In this document: one piece after another, positions 50,319 to 63,657 of the stretch
Position numbering within the stretch: the stretch's first letter is position 1
Layout of the letters: every line of letters starts with the position of its first letter
Source: Candidatus Staskawiczbacteria bacterium
GTDB lineage: Bacteria > Patescibacteriota > Minisyncoccia > Minisyncoccales > Staskawiczbacteraceae
Direction: 5' to 3'
Length of the DNA: 64,000 nt
NCBI GenBank assembly: GCA_963778905.1
Contig: CAVZWH010000024.1
Span: 12,498-76,497, forward strand
The notes under the pieces: generated by a model
Seen by the model: the letters and a program-made list of their open reading frames with translations, nothing else
What the model was told of the DNA's origin: nothing
Database searches by the model: none
Translations under genes and position numbers: made by a program

Positions 50319-51413
50319 ATGAATTATTATGAAGTTCTTGGAGTGCAGAAAACCGCCTCACAAGACGAAATAAAAAAAGCATTTCACAAACTGGCGCACA
50401 AATATCATCCGGACAAGGGCGGCGATGAAAAAAAGTTCAAGGAAATAAACGAGGCGTACCAGGTGCTTTCAGATAAACAAAAACGCGAGCAGTACGACCA
50501 ATACGGCAGAGTTTTTGAAAACGGTCAGCCAGGCGGAGATCAGGGATTTAATTGGGCATGGGGCAACAGACCCGGGGGACCCTCTGGGTCGGAAGAAATT
50601 GAGTTTGATTTTGGAGATGTTGGCGATATTTTTGCAGAATTTTTTGGCGGAGCGCGACCAGGCAGAGGCAGAAAAGATTTTAAAAAAGGAAAAGACATAC
50701 AAGTTGATATAGAAATAAATTTAGAAAAAACGCTGAAAGAATTTGTTGAAAAAATAATTTTAGCAAAGCAAGTTGTTTGCCACAGATGCCAAGGTACCGG
50801 AGCCGAAGTTGGAAGCAAAATAAAAGAATGTTTTTCCTGCAGAGGAACAGGACAAGTTCAGCAGATTAAAAAAACATTTTTGGGTTCGTACACAACTTTG
50901 GCAACGTGCCCCGAATGCAAAGGCGAAGGAACAATTCCCGAAAAACCATGCAACGTTTGCAAGGGCGAAGGCAGAATAAAAGGCGAAGAAACAATTGAAG
51001 TGCATATTCCCGCTGGAATTGACACAAATCAGGTAATCAAGGTTGACGGAAAAGGAGAGGCAGGAAAAAAAGGAGCAAAAGCAGGAAATTTATTTGTCAG
51101 AATTTTTGTAAAACAGCATTCTGCATTTGAAAGAAGGGGAGACGATTTATTTTCAGAATTTGAAGTAAATTTTTCGCAGGCAGCTTTGGGAGATGAAATT
51201 GAAATGAAAACATTGGAGGGCACAAACATTTTGTTGGAAGTTCCGGCAGGAACAGAATCAGGAAAAGTTTTAAGAATTTCGGGAAAAGGAATTCCGCATT
51301 TTGGCGGATATGGCAGAGGAAATTTGTATATTGAATTGAAAGTAAAAACACCGCGCAAATTATCCAGAAAACAAAAAGAATTATTAGAAAAATTAAAAGA
51401 GGAGGGAATTTAA
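50319..51413 (+). CDS. dnaJ: molecular chaperone DnaJ
   Basis: J-domain with HPD (KYHPDKG), G/F-rich region, four CxxCxGxG zinc-finger repeats. Confidence 0.9.
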
Positions 51414-51422
51414 TTTCCACAT

Positions 51423-51494
51423 GCCCCGGTAGCTCAATGGTAGAGCAGTAGCCTTTTAAGCTATTGGTTCCGAGTTCGAGTCTCGGCCGGGGCA
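51423..51494 (+). tRNA. tRNA-Lys (anticodon TTT)
   Basis: Acceptor gccccgg/ccggggc, D-arm gctc-AATGGTA-gagc, anticodon stem gtagc/gctat loop cuUUUaa, T-arm ccgag-TTCGAGT-ctcgg. Confidence 0.9.
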
Positions 51495-52967
51495 CAAATT
51501 AGAACAGCCGTTCGCCAAAGCCATTGCTTGGAACGGCTTTTTAAGTGTAAAAGTGAGGTTTTTACCGCTTAATTTGGAGTTCTGAAATAGAAAGTTGATA
51601 AATGCTCGCTTTTCCATTGGTTCAGAACTTTTGAATAGCGAATATGCCCGTTTAGCAAGGCTCATAATCATTGCAATAGTGATATAAAATTCTTTGTCGG
51701 CTTTCTGATGTTTTTCCATTTCCTTGTTTAGGGCTGTCTGTTTTGCGTCGTATTCGTTGATTTTTTTATCGTAGTCCTCTTTGGCTATTTCCTCGTCAGC
51801 TAATCTATCAAGCAAGTTGCTTTTTCTTTTTGCATATTTATCGTGCTCTGCCCGCAGAGTTTTCATTGAGCCCTCGTAAAACTCATTCTTTGCGTCCTCG
51901 CTCTGTGCCAAAAGCGTCATTAGGCGTGTTTTTTGCCTCTCTGTGAGGCTTATCTTGCGGAGAACCTTGTATATTGGCTTAAATAGGTCATTCTCGTTGA
52001 CATAGAGCCTTTTAGTGTGCATTTTCTTGCTGTTGGTGCAACTATAATAATGATATTTGCCTTTGTGTGTTTCCGCCGTAATCGTGCAACCGCAATCGGC
52101 ACATTTTACCAAACCTCTGAAAGCATAAGGTTTGCAAGCGTATCTAAACTGCTTTTTATTAAAGCCACTAAAAACATCTTGCACTCGGTCAAATAATTGT
52201 TTTGAAATTAAAGGCTCGTATCGGTGCGGATAGAGAACTCCCTTAATTCTCATTTGCCCGTAATAAAACGGGTCTCGTAAAATAATATAAATTTGTCCTC
52301 TTGGTAGGGGCTTGGGAGTTTTGGTATTGCTTCTTAATCCCGCCCTTTCCATTACCTCTTGAATTTGTTTAGTTGAGGAAGTCCCAGTTGCATACATCTC
52401 AAACATCTTAACAATAAATTGACTTCTTAACGGGTCGGGTATTACATTTATTCTTTTGCCCGTATCGTCATAAACTCCCACATAGCCGATTTTTGGTTTT
52501 GTAATCCATTCTTTGTTTTGTATCTTTTGCTCGTAGCTTCTTTTAACATCATCAGAAAGCCTATTAAGATATTGTTTAGCCAAAAATACTTTCGCCTCCC
52601 ACATAAACATCTGGTTGCCTGTTGCATTTTTATTTACAAAAAACCCGTCTTGCACAAAATGAATTTCTAAATCCTCTTTGCGTCGCATTTCGTCTAAATC
52701 AACAGCGTCCTTGAAATTCCTTGTTGCTCGGTCAACATTCTCACAAAGCAAAACTCTAACATCTTTATGGCTTCTAATATACGCAATAACTTCCTCAAAC
52801 TTTTTTCTTATTTTATCTCCCGCACTTTCGTGAAATGAAAAAGTCTCAACTATTTCAAAGTCTTTTTTCTTTGCATATTCCTGCAACCTCCTTATTTGAG
52901 CGGGGAGTGAGTGTCCCTGCTCCTCCTGCTCCTTTGTTGAAACTCTTGCGAGTATTACCGCTTTCAT
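51456..52967 (-). CDS. large serine recombinase (resolvase-type catalytic domain + recombinase/zinc-ribbon domains)
   Basis: N-terminal VILARVSTKEQ...SLPAQ catalytic Ser motif, C-terminal CADCGCT...YYSC zinc ribbon, coiled-coil; 3' end overlaps tRNA-Lys antisense; ATG overlaps res stop (ATGA). Confidence 0.8.
   Translation of the reverse strand: MKAVILARVSTKEQEEQGHSLPAQIRRLQEYAKKKDFEIVETFSFHESAGDKIRKKFEEVIAYIRSHKDVRVLLCENVDRATRNFKDAVDLDEMRRKEDLEIHFVQDGFFVNKNATGNQMFMWEAKVFLAKQYLNRLSDDVKRSYEQKIQNKEWITKPKIGYVGVYDDTGKRINVIPDPLRSQFIVKMFEMYATGTSSTKQIQEVMERAGLRSNTKTPKPLPRGQIYIILRDPFYYGQMRIKGVLYPHRYEPLISKQLFDRVQDVFSGFNKKQFRYACKPYAFRGLVKCADCGCTITAETHKGKYHYYSCTNSKKMHTKRLYVNENDLFKPIYKVLRKISLTERQKTRLMTLLAQSEDAKNEFYEGSMKTLRAEHDKYAKRKSNLLDRLADEEIAKEDYDKKINEYDAKQTALNKEMEKHQKADKEFYITIAMIMSLAKRAYSLFKSSEPMEKRAFINFLFQNSKLSGKNLTFTLKKPFQAMALANGCSNLCPGRDSNSEPIA
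51506..51542 (+). terminator. rho-independent terminator after tRNA-Lys (lies antisense within recombinase ORF)
   Basis: agccgttc...gaacggct hairpin + TTTT. Confidence 0.6.
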
Positions 52968-55633
52968 TTAATAACTGCTTTTAATTTTCTATGAAACTCT
53001 GGCTCATAGGTATAGTTCCCATTTCTTACAATTTCAGTAAAGAAATTGTTATAATCGTCTGAGCTTACAATATAACCAAAATACTTTTTGCCTTTCAAAA
53101 CTTTGTTTAGCTCGGCTAAATAATTATTAAGCCCCTCTAATTTCAGTTTGTTTTTTAAAGTAATATCAGTTTTATCTTTTATCTCAACAAGTAAATAAAC
53201 ACTATCATTCATTTTAATTATAAAGTCGGGGTTAAACTCAATCTTATATTCGTCCTTACTGCAATCAATATAATAAAAGCCCCTTGATTTTGATTTTATC
53301 CACGCCTCAATGGTTTCATTGTTATTAAATAACCTTTCAATAAATTCTTTTTCATTGTCGCTATCTGGGAGTATAAAATTTAAAGGGTTCTTATATTTAT
53401 CTTTTTTAATATCATAAAATCTTTTTAAAATTGATTTTTTAGCTTTACCCTTAAACAATTCAAGGTCTTCTTTGTCGTCTATTAACCCCTGCCTTTGATA
53501 TTTTTTTAATTCGTAATTTACCAAATCTTCCAAATAATCCCACTTTTCAATATCGGTAATTTCTTGGCAATAAAAAGCCTTTTCATAATCATCTAAAAAA
53601 GTCTTAATGCCAACATTAGAAACTCCAAAATCTTTCGTATTTTTTTGTTTAATTTCGTATTGCTTTTTTTCCTCTTTGGCTTTTTCAGATATGCCCCAAT
53701 CAATACTGCTAAATTCTTCTTCAATCCTTCTAAAATTATAAACTGAAATTCTGTCTTTAATTTTTGACTTCTTAATCGTGGAGCAATCTAAAACACAATC
53801 AGCAAACTCTTCTGCGTTCCTAAATTTATCGGTAAAATCAGTATCAAGCCCAACGCCTTGATTATACCAGTCAACCAAATACTTTTTTGAATAATACTCA
53901 ATTTCAAAATTTGCCTGCATATAGCCCTCGCCCTTATCTCTTAAAGTCATAGTTCCAAACGCAACATCTAAATCTTTGCCTTGCTCCTTAAAGTTAGCAG
54001 TTGCCTTATTCAATGTATCTTTCATTGATATTTTTACTGCTTTCTGCGTTTCTCTTTTCTGTTGTGCTTTATCAAAATCTTCATTAAAATCCTCAAACTT
54101 TTCTTCTAAATAATCAATGTCAAAATTAAATTCTTTTGTTGGTTTAACCTCAAAGCGGTTTGTTGTATCAACAACATCATTAACTAATAAATTTATATTT
54201 TCGTCTCCCCATTTTTTGTGGTTTAAAACAATAACTTCTTGATATTTATCGTCTAAATTTGGCACACGCCTTAAACCCCTGCCGACTACCTGCGAAATTA
54301 AAAGTTTTGAATTAAACGCTCTCTCTTGGTGAGGGACAATTAAAAATACATTCTTGCAGTCCCAACCCTCTGAAAGCATACTAACCGAAATTATCCATTC
54401 AACTTTGTTTGCCTTGCTTCCGTCGTAAATATCAACATTATCAAATAGCTCTTCATTTTTTAAATGCTCGGGGTCAGAGGTGTAGCAAATCACTTTTTCG
54501 TCAATATCCTTTTCTTTTTTGTCTTTCAAAATCTTTTTAAAATCCTCCTCAACTTTTTTGGCTTCGTTAATATCGGCAGTAATGATAATGCCAATCGGTT
54601 TTTTGTTTATACCGTTATTTTTAAATTCTTTTTTAATTTTCTCTAACTGCTCTATGGCTAATAAAAATTGTTGTTTTTCTGCTTGAATTTCAGATATTTT
54701 TTCGTCGCCCTCTGGAAGATATTTAATATCCTTAATTACATCATTTTTAATAGCGTCCATTAAACCATATCTGTAAATAACATTATGCAAATATGTATTT
54801 GTTGCCTCAAACGGAGTAGCAGTAAAGTTTATAATGTTTTTTATTTTATAATCAGCATTATCTAAAAACTCCTTCCATTTTTTAATATCTTGGTATTCTT
54901 GGTTTCTCGGGTTGCTCCCCTGATTGAAATTATAAATATGGTGGGCTTCGTCATTTATTATTAAAACATCTTCGCCTCTGCCGTTTCCAAAACTTTCCTC
55001 TTTTGACAAAACAGCATTTTCGCTTTCATAAAATTTATGTATGTTATCAATAGCCAAACAATTATCTCCCAAAGCGTCCTCGTGCAAAGAAACAAGGTTT
55101 GGAAGTTTTAAGTTTTGAATTGATTTTATTTTATCAAAAAGCTCCTCAAACTTTTGGTTTAATTGTTTTTTAATTGTCTTTGACGGAGTAATTATTTGCA
55201 CTCTTTTAATCTCTGGCAGTTCGTTTAAAAGAATTATCGCAATTAAAAACATTACATAGCTTTTGCCAGTTCCAGTCGGCAAATCAATAGTCGCAATACG
55301 CTTGTTTAAATCGTCTAATTTGCCCTTAAAACCACTTCCGTATATTTCCTTGTAATAGTCCTCTAAGTCGCTGTTATGGGCTAAATTTTCGCTTAACAGC
55401 CCGTCTAAATCGCTATACTCTAAGTAATAGCTTAAAAGCTCCTCAATGGCTTGTTTCTGAAAGAAAAACTTGTTTGTGTCTTTATCCTCGCCCCGTCCGC
55501 AGACAACATCAATCAACTCCTGATATTTTTCAAGGACTTCTGGCTTTACTCTTTTTTTAGGTTTAAGTATTAGCTTGTCTGTTTTTAATTCCATAGTTTT
55601 AAATCGTAAATTGTTTAAATAATTCATTGCCAA
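52964..55633 (-). CDS. Type III restriction enzyme Res subunit (SF2 helicase + endonuclease)
   Basis: DLPTGTGKSYVM Walker A, NDEAHHIY DEAH box, helicase C-terminal motifs; immediately downstream of mod with 35-nt overlap. Confidence 0.75.
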   Translation of the reverse strand: MAMNYLNNLRFKTMELKTDKLILKPKKRVKPEVLEKYQELIDVVCGRGEDKDTNKFFFQKQAIEELLSYYLEYSDLDGLLSENLAHNSDLEDYYKEIYGSGFKGKLDDLNKRIATIDLPTGTGKSYVMFLIAIILLNELPEIKRVQIITPSKTIKKQLNQKFEELFDKIKSIQNLKLPNLVSLHEDALGDNCLAIDNIHKFYESENAVLSKEESFGNGRGEDVLIINDEAHHIYNFNQGSNPRNQEYQDIKKWKEFLDNADYKIKNIINFTATPFEATNTYLHNVIYRYGLMDAIKNDVIKDIKYLPEGDEKISEIQAEKQQFLLAIEQLEKIKKEFKNNGINKKPIGIIITADINEAKKVEEDFKKILKDKKEKDIDEKVICYTSDPEHLKNEELFDNVDIYDGSKANKVEWIISVSMLSEGWDCKNVFLIVPHQERAFNSKLLISQVVGRGLRRVPNLDDKYQEVIVLNHKKWGDENINLLVNDVVDTTNRFEVKPTKEFNFDIDYLEEKFEDFNEDFDKAQQKRETQKAVKISMKDTLNKATANFKEQGKDLDVAFGTMTLRDKGEGYMQANFEIEYYSKKYLVDWYNQGVGLDTDFTDKFRNAEEFADCVLDCSTIKKSKIKDRISVYNFRRIEEEFSSIDWGISEKAKEEKKQYEIKQKNTKDFGVSNVGIKTFLDDYEKAFYCQEITDIEKWDYLEDLVNYELKKYQRQGLIDDKEDLELFKGKAKKSILKRFYDIKKDKYKNPLNFILPDSDNEKEFIERLFNNNETIEAWIKSKSRGFYYIDCSKDEYKIEFNPDFIIKMNDSVYLLVEIKDKTDITLKNKLKLEGLNNYLAELNKVLKGKKYFGYIVSSDDYNNFFTEIVRNGNYTYEPEFHRKLKAVIK

Positions 55634-57653
55634 AATCGTCCATAAAAATTATGGCAATTTCTTTGCCTAATCCATTTTTATCTAAAACAATTTTCTTACT
55701 CTTTACAAATCCTTCAATTTTCTTTTCATTGCCTTCGTCGTCTTCCTCAACATCATTATCAGCAAAAAATGTTTCCGACACTTTAAAAGATTTTTGGTTG
55801 TAATCTTTATCAACTAAAATCATAGCTAAATTTTCAATTCCGTCTTTGTCGCCAATTTTTACGCTATTTATTTTTATTTCAACTCCGTCTTTATCTTTTT
55901 TAATTTCTTCCTCAATTTCTATCTCAAAAGTATTAACAAAATCAAACCCTGCAATGTTAGAAAACTTTGTCTCAATATCCGACTTCTTTTTTACTTGGCT
56001 TATTTTGTTTATTTTTTCCAAAGCAACTTTATCTATTTCGGGAGCTGTTTCGTCTGTTTTGTTTTTTAGGTTTCCTCTGTTGGCTTTTAGTATTACATTA
56101 TTTCTTAAATGTTTTATAATCTGTGAGCTATCCCTATTTTCAATTACAAACTGCACGAGCAAAGAGTAGGGGATTTTGTGGATATAAAATTGAGTGTCTT
56201 TAATCTTTAAATAGTTAGTGTATAGCTTATCTTGGTTCTGGGAGATAATAATATAAACTCTTTTTAATTTACCGCCCAATTTTTTCTCTAATTGCTCTAA
56301 ATCTTGTTTTGTTATTTTACCCTTGTTAGAAAAAACATAAACAAAGTTATTGCTATATTTTCCATTAAACTCCACGCCGTTTATTTTCTCTGCTTTGTTT
56401 TTATCAACTTGAAACAAATCACAAGCAAAGTTTTTATATAAGTCGTCTTCAATAATAATCTGCTTGTCTAAATCTCTAATCTCATAAACCCCGCTATTCA
56501 TAACAATAAATGGCTTATGATTTTGAATATCTAAAAGTCTTTTTTGTGTCGTATAAATAGCTAATTTACCAGCGTCAATTCCAATCCATTTTCGGTTTAG
56601 TTCTTCTGCCATAATACAAGTTGTTCCACTACCAGCAAAAGCGTCTAAGATAAGCTCACCCTCTTTTGTGCTTGCATTTAAAATCCTCGTCAGCAATCCT
56701 TTTGATTTTTGTGTAGGGTATCCTGTATATTGATTTGAGCCACTGATAAATGGTTTTGTATAATCTCCGTCCCAAACATCTCTAACATAAACTTCGCTGT
56801 AATACTTATCAAAAATAATGCTCTTAAATCTATCTGGCAAAGACTTTCCATTTTTTATTAGTTGTATAATTTTTTCTTTATCTTTTTCTGATAATTCATT
56901 GCATTTCCCTTCTTCTTTCTTTGTATCAATAAAGGGCTTTTCATATATTACTTTTTCTTTTTCTTGTTTAAAATAAAAATCTTTGTTTTTTGAGTAAAAT
57001 AATATAGTTTGGTGTTTCCTTGCAAAAGAACTCCTGCTTATTCCTTGTATTCTATAACCATATATTATTTCGTTTATCAATTTATCCTTTCCAAAAATTT
57101 CGTCCATAACCAATTTAATTGCGTGGACACTACGATAATCTAAATGCACATAAATACACCCGTCTTTACTTAAAAGCTCTTTCATTAAGAATAGTCTCTC
57201 TCTTAAAAACTCAACAAATTCTGCACCCTCTAATTTATCTTTATAGGCTTTTGTTTCTCCGTTTTTAAAATCACTTTGTGTCGCAAAGGGAGGGTCAATA
57301 TAAATCAGTTTAATTTGCTCTTTGTATCCGTTATCAAGCAAGTATTTTAATGCTTGTAAGTTGTCGCCATAAATCAATTTGTTATACCAATTTTTCTCTC
57401 CCGCAATTTCGCTCTTTTCTTTGCTTGTGCCAAATTTTCTAATCTCTTGAAACGGGGCAGATATTGTTTTATCAATTATGGTTCTTTTATCTTTTTTTCC
57501 GTCATAAATTAACTGAGCTGTTTTATTAACTCCCAATGCCTTTTGCAAATCAAAAATTTCATTATCAAATCTAAAATCAACTGGGAGCTTCCCGTATTTT
57601 TCTAAAATTTCCTTTTTGATTTTATAATCGTCAAAACTCTTTTGATTTGCCAT
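55599..57653 (-). CDS. Type III restriction-modification Mod subunit (beta-class N6-adenine DNA methyltransferase)
   Basis: IYIDPPF (motif IV DPPF/Y) preceding LILDAFAGSGTT (motif I), central variable target-recognition region. Confidence 0.8.
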   Translation of the reverse strand: MANQKSFDDYKIKKEILEKYGKLPVDFRFDNEIFDLQKALGVNKTAQLIYDGKKDKRTIIDKTISAPFQEIRKFGTSKEKSEIAGEKNWYNKLIYGDNLQALKYLLDNGYKEQIKLIYIDPPFATQSDFKNGETKAYKDKLEGAEFVEFLRERLFLMKELLSKDGCIYVHLDYRSVHAIKLVMDEIFGKDKLINEIIYGYRIQGISRSSFARKHQTILFYSKNKDFYFKQEKEKVIYEKPFIDTKKEEGKCNELSEKDKEKIIQLIKNGKSLPDRFKSIIFDKYYSEVYVRDVWDGDYTKPFISGSNQYTGYPTQKSKGLLTRILNASTKEGELILDAFAGSGTTCIMAEELNRKWIGIDAGKLAIYTTQKRLLDIQNHKPFIVMNSGVYEIRDLDKQIIIEDDLYKNFACDLFQVDKNKAEKINGVEFNGKYSNNFVYVFSNKGKITKQDLEQLEKKLGGKLKRVYIIISQNQDKLYTNYLKIKDTQFYIHKIPYSLLVQFVIENRDSSQIIKHLRNNVILKANRGNLKNKTDETAPEIDKVALEKINKISQVKKKSDIETKFSNIAGFDFVNTFEIEIEEEIKKDKDGVEIKINSVKIGDKDGIENLAMILVDKDYNQKSFKVSETFFADNDVEEDDEGNEKKIEGFVKSKKIVLDKNGLGKEIAIIFMDDFGNELFKQFTI

Positions 57654-57657
57654 AAAA

Positions 57658-57837
57658 TTATTTGGTTTTTACTTTATTTAAAAAATTATTAAACTCTTCC
57701 TTATCTATTCTAAACTCTTTGCCTATTTTATAGGCTTTTACTTTTTTCCGCTTAATGTATCTGTAAATTGTCATTGTTGAAACTCTTAGCTTTTCAGCTA
57801 ACTCCTCAACAAGGTAAAATTCTTTTTCTTGTGTCAT
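57658..57837 (-). CDS. excisionase-family HTH DNA-binding protein (59 aa; not in ORF track because <60 aa)
   Basis: MTQEKEFYLVEELAEKLRVSTMTIYRYIKRKKVKAYKIGKEFRIDKEEFNNFL matches HTH_17/Xis pattern; stop 4 nt before mod ATG. Confidence 0.5.
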   Translation of the reverse strand: MTQEKEFYLVEELAEKLRVSTMTIYRYIKRKKVKAYKIGKEFRIDKEEFNNFLNKVKTK

Positions 57838-57841
57838 ATTT

Positions 57842-57997
57842 TTATTTTTTTATTAACCTAATATCGTCGCCATAAACAGCCTCATAAAGTCCCACAAAGT
57901 TGTTAGCTCGGCGGGTTGCTTCCTCGTCTGATAATTTTATGCCGTAATTTTTATAATATAGCTCCCTAAATTCCTCAACAGCTTCTTTTGGCAACAT
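57842..57997 (-). CDS. small hypothetical protein (51 aa) upstream of xis-like gene
   Basis: ORF MLPKEAVEEFRELYYKNYGIKLSDEEATRRANNFVGLYEAVYGDDIRLIKK in operon position; weak. Confidence 0.2.
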   Translation of the reverse strand: MLPKEAVEEFRELYYKNYGIKLSDEEATRRANNFVGLYEAVYGDDIRLIKK

Positions 57998-58072
57998 ATT
58001 TTTTTATTACTTTTTAATGCTATTATGTCATTATATCGTATTTAACAATGGTTGACAACAGCAAGCTGTGGA

Positions 58073-59203
58073 TTATTTACCTAAATCATTATTTTTTATA
58101 GTTTCCTTGATAAGTTCAGTTAATTCCTCCTTGCTAAGATTATATTTAACCTCTACATTCTTACCCTCAAAATCAACATTCCTTATAATTTCTATTTGTT
58201 TATCTGTCTCAAACCTCCCATATCCGCCAGAGCCGAAAGTCGTTGCAGTATATTTATGCCCGAAATTCTGGCTAAACGCCCGTTTCTGCTCCTCTGTAAG
58301 TGATAGTTTTGATATTTGCCTAACTAATAAATGCCTGAAAGTGTGCGGGTGGTAATACTTAACTCCCGCATTTATAAATCTTTTTTCAAAGATTTTTCTT
58401 AATGCTGTCTGTGCTTTTATAAATACTGGCTCAACTTTTCCTGTGTTGTAATAACCTATATTATCTTTGCCGTTTTCAATTTTAGTAGCGGGGAATATAG
58501 GATTTTCTGGCGTAAATCCTCTTTGCTTTTGCAAGTAATCATACCATTGCATAAAATAAGTTAAGGTCTCTTTGTAGAAAAAGGGGATTAAGACAGAGGT
58601 TATATTTGTTGAATTTTTTGTTTTTACTCCTAATTCAGTATGTTGGTATAAAACTTGTTTCTCTCGGTCAAAACTTTTCATTGGGAGCGTCATAATAGCC
58701 TCAATTCTCGCCCCTGTCATAACAGCCAAAGAAAGCAAAGCCTTGTCTCTCATTTCAATCTCGTTCTCTCCCTTGATATTCTCAATGGCTTTTTTAACAT
58801 CTTGCAAGTCGGGGCATTTTATATCTTTCGGTTGTGTAGCTTCCTGATTTTCCTTGTTAGTTAGGTGCAGATAATCAACAGCGTTATTATTGTTTATCCT
58901 TTTGTAGCCGTTTTGTTTTGATAACCAGTCAAAAAAAAGCCTTATAAATCGTAAAATATGATAGCTGTAAGTTAGGCTAACATTTTCTTGGGAGCGGACT
59001 TTTTTCTTATTTCTTAGCCAGTTGGTAAATTCAACCGCCATAGTCTCGTTAAAATTTTTAAAATCTTTATAATCGGTAAAATCCTCCCATAAACAAATAG
59101 CATTTTCGCACCTGTTAATGCTTTTGGGCGAAAATCTTTTATAGTTTTTAAGCCATTCGTAAAATTTCCTTTTTACCTGCTCGTTTTTATAAGTTGTTTT
59201 CAT
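58073..59203 (-). CDS. tyrosine recombinase / phage-type integrase
   Basis: N-terminal SAM-like DNA-binding domain; catalytic region with ARIEA (Arg), HPHTFRHLL (HxxR), downstream Tyr. Confidence 0.7.
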   Translation of the reverse strand: MKTTYKNEQVKRKFYEWLKNYKRFSPKSINRCENAICLWEDFTDYKDFKNFNETMAVEFTNWLRNKKKVRSQENVSLTYSYHILRFIRLFFDWLSKQNGYKRINNNNAVDYLHLTNKENQEATQPKDIKCPDLQDVKKAIENIKGENEIEMRDKALLSLAVMTGARIEAIMTLPMKSFDREKQVLYQHTELGVKTKNSTNITSVLIPFFYKETLTYFMQWYDYLQKQRGFTPENPIFPATKIENGKDNIGYYNTGKVEPVFIKAQTALRKIFEKRFINAGVKYYHPHTFRHLLVRQISKLSLTEEQKRAFSQNFGHKYTATTFGSGGYGRFETDKQIEIIRNVDFEGKNVEVKYNLSKEELTELIKETIKNNDLGK

Positions 59204-59273
59204 AATTTTGTTAGTTTAATTGGTTAATGGTTGAATATGGTATTTACGAGTAATAATAAATAACTATTTAATC

Positions 59274-59666
59274 TCATTGGCATACCCCCGAATACTTATT
59301 TAGCTTTGTCCCGCAAAACTCACAAATACCAGTTTTTTTAATTTGCTTATGGTTATCTTTTCCTATTGTTTTGCCAGTTTCAAGAGCTTGCTCACTGCCA
59401 GCTTTTGCTTTAACCCCTTTTCGGCATTTCATACATAAAAACTCATCTTCTTTAATATGTATTTTTCCTTTCTCCCGTTGTATTTTTATAAAATCTATTA
59501 AATCCTCCCCCCATATTAAAAATGGTTTTATTCCTTCAATGGTTGCTAACCCCTCCTCGTTAATCCAACGACGGCAAGTTTCACCGCCAACTCCCCAAAC
59601 AGCCGTTATTTCTTTTATTAAATAGCTTCTTTTTTCCGTTATTAAATTGATATTGTATTTAGGCAT
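59274..59666 (-). CDS. hypothetical HTH + C-terminal zinc-ribbon protein
   Basis: ITAVWGVGGETCRRWINEEGL HTH-like; CMKCRKG...CEFCGTK CxxC-CxxC. Confidence 0.4.
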   Translation of the reverse strand: MPKYNINLITEKRSYLIKEITAVWGVGGETCRRWINEEGLATIEGIKPFLIWGEDLIDFIKIQREKGKIHIKEDEFLCMKCRKGVKAKAGSEQALETGKTIGKDNHKQIKKTGICEFCGTKLNKYSGVCQ

Positions 59667-59948
59667 AGGGTTATCTGTCGGTTTCTTGTTTAGGCTCTTT
59701 AATTTCTTTCTTTTTGTAAAGGTGCGGATTAACTCTCATATCAACCTTTAATAACAACTGAAAAAATCCCAACAAGTTCTGCTCGGCTTCATAATCGTCA
59801 ACCTCATCTATATTTTCATTATTTAGTTTGTCGGGGTTTTCCGCTTTCATACTCCTATCCTCCCACGAGAAATGAACTTAAATAAATCTTAACAATAGCA
59901 ATAAAAAAAGCCGATTTTACTCGGCGTTTGAAAGTTGATATTTTCTAT

Positions 59949-59977
59949 TAAGTTCTGTTAAGTTCTTTTAAGTTCTT
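59949..59977. repeat. three direct repeats TTAAGTTCT at 10-bp spacing (iteron-like)
   Basis: ttaagttct at 59949, 59959, 59969; straddles stop codon of ORF 59958-61322. Confidence 0.6.
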
Positions 59978-61322
59978 TACTCTTTCTTTTTTTAAGAACC
60001 GAAAATTGCTTTTCTGTTATGATTTTTGTCTTTATTTCTGGGTTAATCATTCTAATATCCCGCCCAATGATAACATCTGTAAGGGTATATTTCCCGCCCA
60101 TATAAATCGGGCAGGCTTCATTATAATCAAAATAGTCTCTCATACTAACTGAAATATCTTTTACATTAGTCCTACTCTCTGGGCGTATGTTTTTATCTTT
60201 TATTTCTTGTATAAAAATTTGCCAACTCTCGGAAATGTCTTTTATCTCCCTCGTCTCGCCATAATCCTCATTAACGGCAACCGAGTGTTTGCCATTTTTC
60301 ATTTTTATTATTGTTATTTTTTCAACCTTGCTCTTTGGCTTTAATTCTTTTGTTTTCTTTTTACCTACTGGCTCTGCATTTTTAACCATCTCTTCTACAA
60401 CTCGCTGTTGTGATTTTGTCCGCAAAGAGGCTTTTTCGGCTTCGCTTAATTCGGGCTTCGGAGCGTCTAACATTCCGAACGCTCTGCTTTGCATTTCGTT
60501 TAATGCTTCAAGCCCTCTTAATGCCTCACTCTTTTTGCTTAAATCCTTAATCAAATAATTATGTATTGCGGTTGCGTAGTTGAGATATTTTTTCCGTTTA
60601 AGGTGAGTTGGGACAAAATGGGAGATTGTGCCGTCGCTAAAATCTTTCATTTTTTCAAAATCAATACGCACTAATTCAAGAGCCCAAAGGTCATACCAAT
60701 TTTTTGGCTCTGCATAAGCAAGTTTTCTAATAGTTTCCTCAACATTTCGGACAACTTCATAAACAAAAAGTAAATCTCCCCAAACGCCCCATTCCTCAAT
60801 TTCTGCCAGATTGTCATATAAGTATTTTAGGGCGTGAAATTCCCTTATCTTGGCTGTTATATTTATATTCCGAAAAAACATATCGCCATCTCTTTCCTCA
60901 ACAAATTTATCAACTAAATCTTTATGCCCGTTAATTTTGAGATGGTGTATTAGGTCGGAAAAATACTGGCGTAAAGTGTCTATTTTATATGCGGTAGAAC
61001 CTATTGTTTGCGGGCTTTCCTCTCTTTCATATCCTGCGATTATTTCAAGCGTTATCGGGTCGTCAATTTTCTGTTTTTTTATTTCTGCAAACAAATTATT
61101 TTTCAAAATGGCTAATTCGGCAATAGCCTCTTTTTCGCCGTTCTGAACCGCCGTTCTTTGCTTTATTGCCTCCCCTTTTAACTTATCGGCTATAACGCTC
61201 GTTTCTGGCGTTTCAATTATAAACTTTACATAGCTGGCTAAATCCTTAAAAAAATAATAATCGTCCTGCTGTTCTGCAAATGCTTTGTAATAACGCTCTA
61301 AATTTTCGGTCGTGTCGCTCAT
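59958..61322 (-). CDS. hypothetical protein (454 aa), no recognisable domain; island cargo
   Basis: Long ORF with coherent composition; Lys/Glu-rich; no motif recognised. Confidence 0.45.
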   Translation of the reverse strand: MSDTTENLERYYKAFAEQQDDYYFFKDLASYVKFIIETPETSVIADKLKGEAIKQRTAVQNGEKEAIAELAILKNNLFAEIKKQKIDDPITLEIIAGYEREESPQTIGSTAYKIDTLRQYFSDLIHHLKINGHKDLVDKFVEERDGDMFFRNINITAKIREFHALKYLYDNLAEIEEWGVWGDLLFVYEVVRNVEETIRKLAYAEPKNWYDLWALELVRIDFEKMKDFSDGTISHFVPTHLKRKKYLNYATAIHNYLIKDLSKKSEALRGLEALNEMQSRAFGMLDAPKPELSEAEKASLRTKSQQRVVEEMVKNAEPVGKKKTKELKPKSKVEKITIIKMKNGKHSVAVNEDYGETREIKDISESWQIFIQEIKDKNIRPESRTNVKDISVSMRDYFDYNEACPIYMGGKYTLTDVIIGRDIRMINPEIKTKIITEKQFSVLKKRKSKELKRT

Positions 61323-61450
61323 TGCTTTTTAAGTATTTAGTATTTAACTATTTTACTTAAAAAGTTAATCATTGTAAAGTAAGCAGAATAAAATTATTTG
61401 AATTATTGCACTATAAATGAATGTGCTATATAATACAATAATTAACAATT

Positions 61451-62788
61451 ATGAATATCAAAAAATTGTTTTCTCCCAAAATACTAAATTACAAAGTTAA
61501 GACGCAGAAATACGGCTCAACTAATTATGTAAATTTGGATAATGCGGCTACAACCCCGCCTCTTTTGGCTGTGCAAAAAGGCGTTGACGATTATCTAATA
61601 AGCTATGGCTCGGTTCATAGGGGAGCTGGGACTAAATCTAAAATTTCAACAGATATTTATGAGGATAGCAGGGAAGTCATTAAAGATTTTGTTAATGCCC
61701 CAAAAGATAACTATGTTATTTTTACAACAAATACAACGGAGGCAATAAATACAGCCGCTTACTTTTTTTCGTTTTTGGAGGGCAAGGTTGCCGTTTCAGA
61801 AGTTGAGCATAGCTCGTCTTGGCTTCCGTGGATAGAAACAGAGGGAATAAAAATGCTCGGCTCAAAACAGGTGTCTTTATCCGAAGTTGAAAGCGAAAAT
61901 CAGAAAATACAGGAATTAGGGCGACAGCAAGTTATACAATATGATGTTAATGACGAGTTTGAATTTAATCTTGCGGACATTGAAAAAATACTCAAAGAAA
62001 ATAAAATAAAAGTCGTGGTCTTAACTGCGGCTTCAAACATCACTGGATATTGCCCCGATATAAAATCGGTAGGCGAGTTAGCTCATAAATACGGAGCTTA
62101 TTTTTTGGTGGACGCTTGCCAGTTTATCCAACATCACAAAATTGATATGCAAGCTATGGGTATTGATTTTCTTGTTGCTTCGGGACACAAGTTTTATGCT
62201 CCGTATGGCGACGGATTTTTAATTGGTGCAAAGAATTTTCTTGACGAATTTTTGCCCTACCAGATTGGAGGAGGTAATTTGCCGTATATAACGCAGGAGG
62301 GCGAGTTTCTACGCTTTAAGACGCAATTAGCTCACGACCCTGGCACTCCCAACGCTGTGGGAGCTGTTGCTATGGCTATTGCCTTAAAAGAATTAAAAAA
62401 GATAGGTATGGACGATATTGAAAAGCACGACGAGAAACTTACAACTAAATTATTTGATTATCTCGCTTCAAACCCAAAGGTTGAACTTTATGTTTCTAAA
62501 AAACATTTGACTACCGTAATACCTTTCAATATCAAGGGAATGGGTGCAAATGAAGTTGCAGAAAGACTGAATAGCGTTTATGGTATTGGCGTAAGGGCTG
62601 GGAGTTTCTGCGTATATAAAGTAGTTAGAAAATTACTACATATCACAGACGAAACAGAAATAATTAAATCCGTAAAAGCTGGAAGCACAGAAAAAGTTCC
62701 GTCGTTAGTCAGAGCTTCAATAGGTCTTTGCAATACTGAAAAAGATATAAAACGCTTAATTGAGGCAATTAAGGAAATAACTAAATAA
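61451..62788 (+). CDS. class V aminotransferase-fold PLP enzyme (cysteine desulfurase/SufS-NifS-like)
   Basis: SGHKFYAPYGDGFL (PLP-Lys in SGHK), NTTEAIN, catalytic-loop Cys (GSFCVY). Confidence 0.7.
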   Translation: MNIKKLFSPKILNYKVKTQKYGSTNYVNLDNAATTPPLLAVQKGVDDYLISYGSVHRGAGTKSKISTDIYEDSREVIKDFVNAPKDNYVIFTTNTTEAINTAAYFFSFLEGKVAVSEVEHSSSWLPWIETEGIKMLGSKQVSLSEVESENQKIQELGRQQVIQYDVNDEFEFNLADIEKILKENKIKVVVLTAASNITGYCPDIKSVGELAHKYGAYFLVDACQFIQHHKIDMQAMGIDFLVASGHKFYAPYGDGFLIGAKNFLDEFLPYQIGGGNLPYITQEGEFLRFKTQLAHDPGTPNAVGAVAMAIALKELKKIGMDDIEKHDEKLTTKLFDYLASNPKVELYVSKKHLTTVIPFNIKGMGANEVAERLNSVYGIGVRAGSFCVYKVVRKLLHITDETEIIKSVKAGSTEKVPSLVRASIGLCNTEKDIKRLIEAIKEITK

Positions 62789-62795
62789 TTAAAAT

Positions 62796-63494
62796 ATGAA
62801 TACAACAAATGTTAAGCCGTCGCAATTAAACTACGATAAATACACCTCTGATAAATACGACAAAGACATTGTTAATTCAATCCCATTTCATAGACAAATC
62901 CATAGTTTAATGATTGATTTTGTTAGAGATAATTATAAACCCGAAGAAAAGCAGGAAATTCTTGATTTGGGAGTTGGGACAGCTATCACAAGCCGACTAA
63001 TAAAAGATGTTTTACCAAATGCTAATTTTGACTTGGTTGATTTCTCCCGACAAATGCTAAAAGGTGCAAAGGAAAAAATGGGGTCTGAAAATGCGAATTA
63101 TATTTTTGGAGACTATGCAAAACTGAAATTAAAAAAGAAATACGATATTATTATTTGTGTTATCGGACTACACCACCAAACTCACGCTGGCAAGAAACAA
63201 ATGTTTAAGAAAATATACGGCTTATTGAAACCCAAAGGAGTATTTCTTTTTGCAGACTTAATAACTTACCGAAATGAAAAAGAGGCGGCACTAAATCAAG
63301 CTAAACACTTTAAGCACTTGGCAGATAATACAGAGGACGATAAAACTCTGTCTGAATGGGCTTATCACCATTTATATCTGAACGATTTAGCTCCCATTGA
63401 AGACCAAATAAAATGGCTAAAAGAGGACGGCTTCAGGGTTGATAAAAAGTTTTTGCAATTCAATACAACCCTATTGATTTGTAGAAAAAAGTAA
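62796..63494 (+). CDS. class I SAM-dependent methyltransferase
   Basis: ILDLGVGTAITS (motif I), DLVDFS (motif II acidic), IICVIGLHH. Confidence 0.7.
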   Translation: MNTTNVKPSQLNYDKYTSDKYDKDIVNSIPFHRQIHSLMIDFVRDNYKPEEKQEILDLGVGTAITSRLIKDVLPNANFDLVDFSRQMLKGAKEKMGSENANYIFGDYAKLKLKKKYDIIICVIGLHHQTHAGKKQMFKKIYGLLKPKGVFLFADLITYRNEKEAALNQAKHFKHLADNTEDDKTLSEWAYHHLYLNDLAPIEDQIKWLKEDGFRVDKKFLQFNTTLLICRKK

Positions 63495-63499
63495 GGTAT

Positions 63500-63657
63500 T
63501 TTAACGGACGAACCCTATAAGGCGAAATTAAAAGTTGAGGCGAGAGCGTCTAACTCAACCCTCATAGCCCGCCAGTCAAAAGTTCTAAGTTCGTCTAATA
63601 GAGGGCACAAACACATGCTAAGTCAGGTGACCTGGAGGCATGGCTAAAAAAGCAAAC
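63500..63657 (+). ncRNA. candidate structured RNA (GC-rich, multiple helices incl. possible pseudoknot) ending in intrinsic terminator
   Basis: Helices: ggacgaac(63506-13)/gttcgtct(63589-96); gttgag(63534-39)/ctcaac(63554-59); ccctc(63559-63)/gaggg(63601-05); catgc(63614-18)/gcatg(63638-42) enclosing tcagg-uga-cctgg; no ORF; followed by terminator. Confidence 0.3.

What the first reader, a model, noticed from the sequence alone, without database searches (positions are those of the whole stretch)
51456..57837. xis-mod-res-serine recombinase arranged as one translationally coupled operon
The excisionase-like HTH stop lies 4 nt before the mod ATG. mod and res overlap by 35 nt. The res stop and recombinase start overlap (ATGA). 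The restriction-modification genes and the recombinase that mobilises them are therefore co-transcribed and probably co-translated. This would tie R-M expression to recombinase expression, as in a selfish mobile R-M unit. Alternatively the small HTH may act as a controller (C-protein-like) rather than an excisionase.
Basis: seen in the sequence. Interest (0 to 1): 0.55.

Follow-up and report, generated by a model that had tools for sequence, protein, structure and literature searches.

The report
Restriction cassette inside a split-integrase mobile element
The restriction-modification genes are swappable cargo held between a small DNA-binding protein gene and a serine integrase gene in a 12-kb mobile element, and inserting into a tRNA gene cuts off the end of that integrase gene, which has so far been described only in archaea.

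Summary
The gene string is real. On the minus strand it reads orf51, HTH, mod, res and large serine recombinase (LSR), separated by 4-nt gaps and one ATGA overlap. One detail is wrong: res starts at ATG 55594, 4 nt after the mod stop, so there is no 35-nt overlap. The string starts at a conserved promoter (58058..58030).

This is not a minimal R-M plus recombinase unit. It is the cargo operon of a 12.1-kb integrative element (about 51490-63611) inserted at the 3' end of tRNA-Lys.

In 41 related loci, mostly Patescibacteria, the same HTH and LSR frame unrelated R-M systems. These are always on the same strand and usually no more than 10 nt apart. Six further loci (seven counting a circular contig) have no comparable cargo, and in four of them the HTH abuts the LSR directly.

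The HTH belongs to the excisionase (Xis/BldC-type) family, not the C-protein family. Its likeliest binding site is a pair of direct repeats in its own promoter.

One result was unexpected. attP lies inside the LSR gene, so integration detaches the last 29 codons (63515-63602). In-frame rejoining restores a conserved tail in 29 loci. Unsplit copies exist, one on a circular contig.

There are no expression or activity data.

The parts
51423..51495 (+). tRNA-Lys(UUU), the integration target. It is intact.
   Evidence: ARAGORN. Rfam tRNA, 76 bits.
51490..51498 (-). attR core TTTGTGCCC. It covers the last 6 nt of the tRNA plus the next 3 nt.
   Evidence: The same 9-mer occurs at the other end of the island. 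I checked the coordinates.
51456..52967 (-). Large serine recombinase in its integrated form (503 aa). Its last 13 codons are antisense tRNA.
   Evidence: Pfam Resolvase, Recombinase and Zn_ribbon_recom. PHROG integrase, E 1e-64. More than 1000 homologues.
52964..55594 (-). res: Type III-like restriction subunit, 876 aa counted from ATG 55594.
   Evidence: Pfam ResIII, E 4.6e-17. TGTGKS, DEAH and a C-terminal PD...ExK motif can be read in the translation. Start codon fixed by the orthologues.
55599..57653 (-). mod: DNA methyltransferase, 684 aa.
   Evidence: Pfam N6_N4_Mtase, E 3e-44. PADLOC MTase_II and MTase_III models. DPPF lies before FAGSGTT in the translation.
57658..57837 (-). Small HTH protein of the excisionase (Xis/BldC-type) family, 59 aa.
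   Evidence: HTH_17, E 1.4e-12. TIGR01764, above its cut-off. PADLOC mad1, E 1.3e-10. Best PDB match 4j2n gp37.
57842..57997 (-). orf51, the first gene of the operon. Function unknown. It is a paralogue of the 59-aa ORF at 59671-59850.
   Evidence: Read from the sequence. Both fall in cluster c1. An orf51-like sequence is fused in frame to the HTH in L058.
58030..58058 (-). Operon promoter with two direct repeats: TTGTCAAC (58058..58051) and TTGTTAAA (58048..58041), 10 nt apart. These are followed by TATAAT at 58035..58030.
   Evidence: Best promoter-like site in the region. The motif is conserved upstream of the HTH block in 38 of 48 HTH-bearing loci and sits at background level elsewhere.
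58073..59203 (-). Tyrosine recombinase (376 aa), a backbone gene. Most relatives carry a Rep-like protein at this position instead.
   Evidence: Pfam Phage_integrase, E 7e-9. PHROG integrase. Clusters c8 and c0.
59274..61322 (-). Backbone genes of unknown function: 130 aa (59274-59666), 59 aa (59671-59850) and 454 aa (59958-61322).
   Evidence: Conserved clusters c7, c1 and c2 at the same positions in related loci. No Pfam, PHROG or NCBIfam family with a clear meaning.
61451..63494 (+). Two opposite-strand genes inside the island: a class-V aminotransferase (cysteine desulfurase-like) and a SAM methyltransferase. L001 and L005 lack them at this position.
   Evidence: Pfam. PADLOC gives generic DndA/SspA and mad2 similarity. 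blastn comparison with L001 and L005.
63515..63602 (-). Detached 3' end of the LSR gene. After the core it reads ...P-LLDELRTFDWRAMRVELDALASTFNFAL, then a stop.
   Evidence: In-frame joining gives a 521-aa protein. Against L003 there are 13 identical codons, 11 synonymous changes and 2 non-synonymous changes, and the other two frames are full of stops. The tail is homologous to the tails of unsplit LSRs.
63603..63611 (-). attL core TTTGTGCCC, the far end of the island.
   Evidence: Homology with L001 and L005 ends exactly here.

Best explanation
The window holds a 12.1-kb integrative element inserted at the extreme 3' end of tRNA-Lys, in a genome that is probably Candidatus Staskawiczbacteria. 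The finding covers its cargo operon.

**The operon.** A conserved promoter (58058..58030) is inferred to drive orf51, a small excisionase-family HTH protein, a Type III-like mod-res pair and the large serine recombinase (LSR) as one transcript.

**The cargo slot.** The HTH and the LSR are conserved frame genes. The space between them is a cargo slot that, across the family, holds R-M systems of almost every type. Cassettes appear to be exchanged by homologous recombination within the flanking HTH and the 5' end of the LSR gene. This mechanism is inferred.

**The HTH.** It most likely binds the two direct repeats that overlap its own promoter and sets the expression level of the operon. That would make it a controller by function, although it belongs to the Xis/BldC family rather than the C-protein family. 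It may also act as a directionality factor for the LSR.

**The LSR.** It is the integrase. Its attP lies inside its own coding sequence. Integration therefore swaps the conserved last 29 codons for 12 codons read from antisense tRNA. I infer that this changes or switches off the enzyme, which would allow it to sit in a constantly expressed R-M operon without causing excision.

**Shown:** gene order, element boundaries, the split gene, cargo diversity and promoter conservation.
**Inferred:** co-transcription, what the HTH binds, and what the truncation does.
For: **Anatomy**
- Junctions read.
- Best promoter-like site.

**Family architecture**
- 80 loci in total: 79, plus the window.
- 61 of 80 LSR ORFs overlap a convergent tRNA gene.
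- 46 loci have a stand-alone HTH upstream on the same strand.
- 41 of these carry cargo; 77 of 78 cargo genes are on the same strand and 108 of 119 junctions are 10 nt or less.

**Cargo types**
- Type III mod-res.
- N6_Mtase plus an S subunit.
- MmeI/Eco57I-like single-chain enzymes.
- C5 methyltransferase with HinP1I and Vsr.
- EcoRII-C, MvaI/BcnI, TdeIII, AlwI and SacI-like enzymes.
- EcoRI methylase with GmrSD_N.
- Mrr.
- PLD-SNF2 plus an MmeI-like enzyme.

**Loci without cargo**
- Six loci have less than 1 kb between the backbone gene and the LSR: L014, L023, L028, L029, L061 and L073.
- In L014, L028, L029 and L061 the HTH abuts the LSR directly.
- The circular contig L084 is a seventh case.

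**Cassette exchange**
- L005 backbone is 85-89% identical, with unrelated cargo.
- L016 cargo is 81% identical, but its LSR is only 48% identical in protein.
- Homology breaks fall at the HTH stop and the LSR start.

**Promoter and operator**
- Present in 38 of 48 HTH-bearing loci within 1.5 kb upstream of the HTH.
- 17 other matches in 875 kb of those loci, and 9 in 437 kb of HTH-less loci.
- No consistent site near the att cores.

**HTH family:**

**Split LSR**
- att cores and in-frame tail.
- Codon pattern.
- All 42 tail matches with E below 0.1 lie on the LSR strand, and 29 loci rejoin to 515-533 aa (one gives 561 aa).
- Unsplit proteins of 521-535 aa exist.
- L084 is a 9.6-kb contig with a 30-bp terminal overlap and an unsplit 535-aa LSR.
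Against: - There are no expression data, so co-transcription and translational coupling remain inferences.
- Promoter-like hexamers are common in this AT-rich DNA. The region holds 41 sites against 38.5 expected. One 10-of-12 match (53098..53069) lies inside res, about 100 nt upstream of the LSR start.
- Tight gene spacing is normal for this genome.
- Ten relatives have the Rep-like gene directly next to the LSR, with no HTH and no cargo. The HTH is therefore not an obligatory partner of the LSR.
- The HTH-cargo association (odds ratio 20, p = 5e-5) is not corrected for phylogeny.
- I did not find the circular form of this particular element.
- The structure model gives the tail low confidence, so its role is unknown.
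- All relatives come from metagenome assemblies.
Confidence: 0.7

Rival explanations
1. The HTH is mainly a recombination directionality factor (excisionase) for the LSR or for the neighbouring tyrosine recombinase. On this view the R-M genes simply landed between xis and int in an ancestor and have stayed there.
For: - It matches TIGR01764 (excisionase family) above the cut-off.
- PHROG annotates the match as 'excisionase and transcriptional regulator'.
- Its best solved relative is 4j2n gp37. From memory, that is the Xis of mycobacteriophage Pukovnik.
- In cargo-less relatives the HTH stop touches or overlaps the LSR start, as in a xis-int pair: L014, L028, L029, L061 and L084.
- From memory, the RDF of the serine integrase of phiRv1 is also an Xis-type HTH protein.
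Against: - Ten relatives have an LSR but no HTH.
- The only conserved repeat motif lies in the HTH's own promoter. None recurs near attL or attR.
- The HTH is fused in frame to Mod in L013 and L019.
- In two IMG/VR contigs the HTH leads R-M-like operons next to only distantly related serine recombinases.
Confidence: 0.25
2. The HTH is a C-protein-type controller that belongs to this R-M system and delays restriction relative to methylation. The recombinase is an unrelated neighbour.
For: - The HTH lies directly upstream of mod-res.
- HTH presence goes with cargo presence: 36, 6, 3 and 10 loci for both, HTH only, cargo only and neither. Fisher p = 5e-5.
- It resembles mad1, the HTH of the methylation-associated defence system, at E 1.3e-10.
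Against: - There is no HTH_3/XRE match. The NCBIfam MAD1 model scores 33.6 bits against a cut-off of 80.
- There is no palindromic C-box upstream.
- Nearly the same HTH, with a mean column identity of 67%, heads more than ten unrelated R-M types. It is also present with no comparable cargo in seven loci, counting the circular contig L084.
- The LSR is a conserved partner, not a chance neighbour.
Confidence: 0.1
3. One of the two recombinases captures and swaps the cassettes by site-specific recombination, as in an integron. On this view the exchange is not by homologous recombination.
For: - Cassette boundaries are sharp and always lie between the same two genes.
- A tyrosine recombinase lies just upstream in the window clade. 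Its weak top NCBIfam match is a 'tyrosine recombinase/integron integrase' model.
Against: - The gaps on either side of the cargo are mostly 1-10 nt, leaving no room for attC-like sites.
- No repeats flank the cargo.
- Most family members carry a Rep-like gene where the window has the tyrosine recombinase.
- The tract shared with L016 extends about 60 nt into the HTH gene and about 100 nt into the LSR gene, as expected for flanking homology.
Confidence: 0.05
4. The adjacency and tight spacing are an ordinary by-product of a compact genome and carry no functional link.
For: Host genes in the window are just as tightly packed, and none has a Shine-Dalgarno sequence.
Against: The same HTH ... LSR frame, with same-strand cargo, recurs in 41 loci from many lineages and next to ten different tRNA species.
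Confidence: 0.03

Closest known systems
R-M plus integrase units integrated into tRNA genes (Furuta, Abe and Kobayashi 2010, PMC2853133)
   Same: R-M genes travel with an integrase and insert at the 3' end of a tRNA gene. That paper also describes allelic substitution of one R-M type by another between conserved flanks.
   Different: - The examples detailed there use tyrosine-type integrase homologues. Here the integrase is a large serine recombinase.
- Here the R-M sits in a fixed slot inside the integrase operon.
- Here the element carries backbone genes.
- Here the integrase gene itself is cut by integration.
Defence-cargo hotspots in mobile elements: P2/P4 hotspots (from memory, Rousset et al. 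2022) and pipolins (PMC11551731)
   Same: Conserved core genes flank a variable position that collects defence systems exchangeable between related elements (abstract seen).
   Different: - The hosts differ: here they are mostly Patescibacteria.
- The element type differs: about 9 kb, Rep-like or tyrosine recombinase backbone, and an LSR.
- The slot holds almost only R-M systems.
- The slot lies between a small HTH gene and the integrase, within a single operon.
SSV-type 'suicidal' integrases of archaea (review PMC8371274)
   Same: The recombination site lies inside the integrase's own gene, and integration into a tRNA gene fragments that gene.
   Different: - Those enzymes are tyrosine recombinases. 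[quoted passage not shown]
- Here the enzyme is a serine recombinase in bacteria.
- Here only the last 29 codons are detached, so the catalytic and DNA-binding domains stay in one piece.
C-protein-controlled R-M operons (from memory: C.PvuII, C.AhdI, C.Esp1396I)
   Same: A small HTH gene sits at the head of an R-M operon, with a likely operator overlapping its own promoter.
   Different: - The fold family differs: excisionase/MerR-like HTH_17 rather than XRE/HTH_3.
- The repeats are direct, not palindromic.
- The protein does not vary with the R-M type.
BldC and Xis-type small winged-helix proteins (PDB 6ama, 6amk, 4j2n)
   Same: These are the nearest solved relatives by sequence. From memory, BldC and Xis bind direct repeats head to tail, which fits the two repeats 10 nt apart in the promoter.
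   Different: Similarity is low (E 1e-5 to 5e-3), and binding was not tested here.
Small serine recombinases as markers of antiphage defence loci (RADS, PMC13552941)
   Same: [quoted passage not shown]
   Different: That work concerns small serine recombinases. Here the enzyme is a large serine integrase, the att sites are defined, and the cargo position is fixed.

Membership tests
Type III restriction-modification system | Mod subunit: an N6/N4 DNA methyltransferase with DPPY/F ahead of FxGxG | tested here: met
   Pfam N6_N4_Mtase, E 3e-44. PADLOC MTase_III models down to E 3e-47, although an MTase_II model scores higher. IDPPF lies before FAGSGTT in the translation.
Type III restriction-modification system | Res subunit: an SF2 helicase-like ATPase with a C-terminal PD-(D/E)xK nuclease, encoded downstream of mod | tested here: inconclusive
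   Pfam ResIII, E 4.6e-17. TGTGKS, DEAH and PD...EIK can be read in the translation, and the gene order is mod then res. However, PADLOC REase_III reaches only E 6e-4, and the NCBIfam BPTD_3080 match (123.5 bits) is far below its 800-bit cut-off.
Type III restriction-modification system | ATP-dependent cleavage and hemimethylation at a short asymmetric site | not testable with these tools
   Needs enzymology or methylome data.
C (controller) proteins of R-M systems | XRE/HTH_3-type helix-turn-helix protein | tested here: not met
   No HTH_3 match. The best matches are HTH_17 and TIGR01764. No C protein appears among the PDB matches.
C (controller) proteins of R-M systems | Palindromic C-box operator upstream of its own gene | tested here: not met
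   No inverted repeat in 57830-58110. The conserved motif consists of two direct repeats.
C (controller) proteins of R-M systems | Belongs to, and varies with, a particular R-M system | tested here: not met
   The same HTH, with a mean column identity of 67%, heads more than ten unrelated R-M types. It is also present with no comparable cargo.
Excisionase / RDF (TIGR01764, HTH_17) | Excisionase-family DNA-binding domain | tested here: met
   TIGR01764 at 49.6 bits against a cut-off of 28.8. HTH_17 at 48.1 bits against 27.
Excisionase / RDF (TIGR01764, HTH_17) | Encoded next to the integrase it assists | tested here: met
   The HTH directly abuts the LSR in the cargo-less relatives L014, L028, L029, L061 and L084. 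In the window the R-M cassette separates the two genes.
Excisionase / RDF (TIGR01764, HTH_17) | Stimulates attL x attR recombination, through binding sites in an att arm or by contacting the integrase | tested here: inconclusive
   No recurring repeat motif near the att cores. Protein-protein contact and activity cannot be tested here.
Large serine recombinases (serine integrases) | N-terminal resolvase catalytic domain with the serine nucleophile, followed by a recombinase domain and a zinc ribbon carrying a coiled-coil insert | tested here: met
   All three Pfam domains are found. R8 and S10 are invariant in the alignment. The model of the homologue P0067 shows long paired helices at 343-419, after the zinc ribbon.
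Large serine recombinases (serine integrases) | Short att sites with a small identical core at both element ends | tested here: met
   A 9-nt core in the window and 5-12 nt cores in 29 loci, all at the tRNA 3' end.
SSV-type suicidal integrases | attP lies inside the integrase gene, so integration splits the gene | tested here: met
   Unsplit forms are seen.
SSV-type suicidal integrases | Archaeal tyrosine recombinase | tested here: not met
   The enzyme is a serine recombinase, and its closest relatives are in Patescibacteria genomes. It works like this family but is not a member.
Integron | Cassettes bounded by attC sites next to an attI site and an intI gene | tested here: not met
   Gaps around the cargo are 1-10 nt. 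No flanking repeats were found.

The most novel reading that the evidence does not exclude
This is the first family of bacterial, serine-type 'self-splitting' integrases. attP sits in the 3' end of the LSR gene. Only the free circular element can make the full-length enzyme. Integration into a tRNA gene replaces the conserved tail with tRNA-antisense codons. On this reading the switch, and not a separate promoter, is what allows the integrase to share a constantly expressed operon with a swappable R-M cassette under an Xis/BldC-type autoregulator. The split itself is well supported. What remains uncertain is whether it regulates activity.
Probability: 0.45. Interest if true: 0.8.

Novelty: new variant of a known kind. 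Interest (0 to 1): 0.68.

Why it matters
- **R-M spread in Patescibacteria.** These bacteria have small genomes and, as far as I know, few defence systems. A common, compact element family with a slot that collects R-M systems of nearly every type would explain how they acquire and swap R-M specificities. The genome scan found 275 relatives among species-representative genomes, and 41 of the 80 loci analysed carry cargo.
- **Self-splitting integrases.** A recent review states that recombinases which disrupt their own gene occur only in archaea. This serine recombinase family in bacteria would extend that. It also offers a simple, testable model for how integration could control integrase activity.
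- **Genome engineering.** These integrases come with precisely predicted att sites, which may be useful as tools.

Tried and rejected
- **Direct repeat of the tRNA 3' end.** A 29-mer search with up to 3 mismatches, and a general repeat search, found nothing. The real core is only 9 nt. I found it by comparing related loci.
- **Rfam.** Searches of the 86-bp conserved element and of the whole island gave nothing beyond the tRNA. The element turned out to be protein-coding.
- **Exact look-up of the recombinase.** No record was found when I gave the window reference, although an identical protein, P0001, exists.
- **Circular form of this clade.** I searched for the attP junction in metagenome and viral contigs. 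The only match, L085, is an unrelated GC-rich contig.
- **Backbone proteins.** Pfam, PHROG, NCBIfam and PADLOC gave no function for the 454-aa, 130-aa, 59-aa and 51-aa proteins. The only lead is a weak Phage_CRI (replication protein) match for the Rep-like family, seen in L083.
- **C-box palindrome upstream of the HTH block.** None found.
- **AlphaFold2 model of a full-length homologue.** The body is modelled well (mean pLDDT 78.9), but the tail has low confidence, so its role stays unknown.
- **Literature.** Six full-text searches found no description of this element family. The library holds open-access papers only.
Full report
**1. What is in the window**

The minus strand carries an unbroken string of genes:

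| Gene | Coordinates | Size |
|---|---|---|
| orf51 | 57997..57842 | 51 aa |
| HTH protein | 57837..57658 | 59 aa |
| mod | 57653..55599 | 684 aa |
| res | ends at 52964 | 876 aa from ATG 55594 |
| large serine recombinase (LSR) | 52967..51456 | 503 aa |

- Three junctions are 4-nt gaps. The res/LSR junction is an ATGA overlap.
- The reported 35-nt mod/res overlap depends on an upstream in-frame TTG. The orthologous Res proteins in L006 and L016 start at MELK..., 5 nt after their mod stop. That fixes the window start at ATG 55594.
- Pfam assigns N6_N4_Mtase to mod, ResIII to res and HTH_17 to the small protein. It assigns Resolvase, Recombinase and Zn_ribbon_recom to the recombinase.
- The best sigma-70-like site between 51 and 62 kb is TTGTCA-17-TATAAT at 58058..58030, directly upstream of orf51. 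No convincing minus-strand terminator lies inside the string.
- The overall counts of promoter-like and terminator-like sites are no higher than in shuffled sequence.
- Host genes here are equally tightly packed, and no gene in the window has a Shine-Dalgarno sequence. The spacing alone therefore proves nothing.

**2. The arrangement is a family trait**

- The LSR has more than 1000 homologues at E of 1e-10 or better. The genome scan found 275 relatives among species-representative genomes, mostly Patescibacteria. The closest are Candidatus Staskawiczbacteria.
- I analysed 80 loci, counting the window. In 61 of them the 3' end of the LSR ORF overlaps a convergent tRNA gene. The counts are Asn 32, Gln 10, His 9, Lys 3 and six others.
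- 46 loci have a stand-alone homologue of the HTH upstream on the same strand.
- 41 of these have genes between the HTH and the LSR. In those, 77 of 78 genes are on the same strand and 108 of 119 junctions are 10 nt or less.
- The cargo is almost always restriction-modification. It includes:
  - Type III mod-res;
  - N6_Mtase with an S subunit;
  - MmeI/Eco57I-like single-chain enzymes;
  - C5 methyltransferase with HinP1I and Vsr, or with EcoRII-C;
  - Dam-like methylases with AlwI or a SacI-like enzyme;
  - MvaI/BcnI and TdeIII;
  - EcoRI methylase with GmrSD_N;
  - Mrr;
  - a PLD-SNF2 protein with an MmeI-like enzyme.
- Six loci have less than 1 kb between the backbone gene and the LSR. In L014, L028, L029 and L061 the HTH abuts the LSR directly. 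The circular contig L084 is a seventh case.

**3. The cargo is exchangeable**

- L005 shares the backbone, the HTH and the LSR at 85-89% nucleotide identity but carries unrelated cargo.
- L016 carries the same Type III cassette at 81% identity. Its LSR is only 48% identical in protein.
- Homology breaks fall at the HTH stop and 2-5 nt before the LSR start. In L016 the shared tract reaches about 60 nt into the HTH gene and about 100 nt into the LSR gene.
- There are no repeats around the cargo and no room for attC-like sites.
- I therefore infer exchange by homologous recombination in the conserved flanks, not site-specific capture.

**4. The real mobile unit**

- Upstream of the HTH the family shares backbone genes:
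  - a protein of about 400 aa (454 aa here);
  - a protein of about 55 aa;
  - a protein of about 90-130 aa;
  - a protein of about 375 aa.
- In most loci the 375-aa protein is a Rep-like protein, with a weak Phage_CRI match in L083. In the window clade it is a tyrosine recombinase.
- An 86-bp stretch at 63524-63609 is 94-95% identical to L001 and L005 and about 80% identical to L003 and L006. In those loci it lies at the far end of the element.
- The stretch begins with TTTGTGCCC (63611..63603). The same 9-mer lies at the LSR/tRNA junction (51498..51490).
- The element therefore spans about 12.1 kb. It also contains two plus-strand genes, a class-V aminotransferase and a SAM methyltransferase, that are absent at this position in L001 and L005.

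**5. The integrase gene is split by integration**

- Joining the LSR ORF across the two cores continues it in frame...CSNLCP-LLDELRTFDWRAMRVELDALASTFNFAL. The result is 521 aa.
- The stretch is under protein-level selection. Against L003 there are 13 identical codons, 11 with only synonymous changes and 2 non-synonymous. The other two frames are full of stops.
- A profile of the tail finds 42 matches with E below 0.1. All 42 lie on the LSR strand. In 29 loci the join is in frame and gives 515-533 aa (one gives 561 aa), with the motif L-P-x(3-5)-F-R-T-x-[DN]-W. Median element size is 9.3 kb.
- Unsplit proteins of 521-535 aa with the same tail are in the database.
- L084 is a 9.6-kb contig with a 30-bp terminal overlap. 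A Rep-like ORF closes across its ends, and it carries an unsplit 535-aa LSR right after the HTH. The circular form of the family therefore exists.
- In the integrated state here, the tail is replaced by 12 codons read from antisense tRNA.
[quoted passage not shown] This family resembles those enzymes in that one respect but is a bacterial serine recombinase.
- I did not find the circular form of this particular clade. A structure model gave the tail low confidence.

**6. What the small HTH is**

*Family*
- It matches TIGR01764, the excisionase family, above the cut-off.
- Its PHROG match is 'excisionase and transcriptional regulator'.
- It matches PADLOC mad1, but it falls below the NCBIfam MAD1 cut-off.
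- Its nearest solved relatives are 4j2n gp37, then 6ama and 6amk. From memory these are a mycobacteriophage Xis and BldC.
- It is not an XRE-type C protein, and no palindrome lies upstream of it.

*Likely binding site*
- The promoter in front of the HTH block is conserved across the family. In the window it reads TTGTCAAC-N2-TTGTTAAAT-N5-TATAAT. More widely it reads TGTAAAG-N3/4-(T/A)GTAAAG-TATAAT.
- 38 of 48 HTH-bearing loci have this motif within 1.5 kb upstream of the HTH. There are 17 other matches in 875 kb of those loci, and 9 in 437 kb of HTH-less loci.
- No such site recurs near the att cores.

*Links to the cargo*
- HTH presence goes with cargo presence: 36, 6, 3 and 10 loci for both, HTH only, cargo only and neither. 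The odds ratio is 20 and p = 5e-5, without phylogenetic correction.
- The HTH is fused in frame to Mod in L013 and L019. An orf51-like sequence is fused to the HTH in L058.
- In two IMG/VR contigs a 60% identical HTH again heads an R-M-like operon next to a distant serine recombinase.

*Reading*
- I take the HTH to be an Xis/BldC-type protein that most likely regulates its own operon. A role as a directionality factor is not excluded.

**7. Verdict**

- The 'selfish R-M unit' reading is right in spirit but wrong about the unit.
- The C-protein alternative is wrong as a family assignment but may be right as a function.
- Because cargo 3' ends are unrelated between relatives and the gap to the LSR start is usually 10 nt or less, there is no conserved room for a dedicated LSR promoter. 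This is the best indirect argument for co-transcription. It remains untested.
- Six literature searches found no description of this element family.
- The closest precedents are:
  - R-M plus integrase units in tRNA genes (PMC2853133);
  - defence hotspots in other mobile elements;
  - SSV-type integrases.

Noticed in passing
window 63515-63611 together with 51456-51498: The last 29 codons of the LSR gene lie 12 kb away, at the other end of the island, just inside the attL core. Circularising the element restores a 521-aa ORF with a tail conserved across the family. attP therefore lies inside the integrase gene.
   Followed up: yes
window 50319-51495, compared with L001 1360-2603 and L005 1-2636: In the window, dnaJ is followed 9 nt later by a co-directional tRNA-Lys and then the LSR end of the island. 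In L001 and L005, dnaJ is followed by the far (attL) end of the island, and tRNA-Lys lies on the opposite strand beyond the LSR. The block made of tRNA plus island is therefore inverted relative to dnaKJ. I have no explanation. The outer flanks show no detectable homology.
   Followed up: partly
window 61451-63494: Two plus-strand genes, a class-V aminotransferase and a SAM methyltransferase, lie inside the island between the detached LSR tail and the promoter of the 454-aa gene. L001 and L005 have only about 60 nt there. PADLOC gives DndA/SspA and mad2 matches, which may be no more than generic similarity. This could be a second cargo position.
   Followed up: partly
window 58073-59203; L001 4180-5316; L083 4490-5617: At the same backbone position, 35 related loci carry a Rep-like protein of about 375 aa (weak Phage_CRI match). 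The window clade (window, L005, L006, L007, L068) instead carries a tyrosine recombinase plus a 130-aa protein. One has apparently replaced the other.
   Followed up: partly
window 57842-57997 and 59671-59850; L058 5094-5459; L013 5656-7623; L019 5524-7620: orf51 and the 59-aa ORF are weak paralogues (cluster c1). An orf51-like sequence is fused to the HTH in L058. The HTH is fused in frame to the Type III Mod in L013 and L019.
   Followed up: partly
L006 3112-9433, compared with window 57843-51532: L006 shares the whole HTH-mod-res-LSR block at 86.6% nucleotide identity but is inserted at tRNA-Gln(CTG). Homology stops about 35 nt before the att core. The target switch therefore maps to the very end of the LSR gene and the att region.
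   Followed up: partly
L086 7998-14661 and L087 7992-14204 (IMG/VR contigs): A 60% identical HTH again heads an R-M-like operon next to a much more distant serine recombinase of about 430 aa. In L087 that recombinase is on the opposite strand.
   Followed up: partly
window, all genes inspected between 39 and 63 kb: No gene has a Shine-Dalgarno sequence. Upstream regions are A-rich, and same-strand genes are typically 2-10 nt apart or overlap by 4 nt.
   Followed up: partly
window 8001-10000: G+C rises to 0.46-0.50 against about 0.35 elsewhere, with a strongly negative GC skew and a positive AT skew. Rfam at gathering threshold finds no RNA family there.
   Followed up: no
window 61350-61378 (minus strand): A promoter-like site, TTTACA-17-TAAAAT, lies in front of the 454-aa backbone gene. 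The surrounding 66-71 nt are 89-92% identical to L001 and L005.
   Followed up: no
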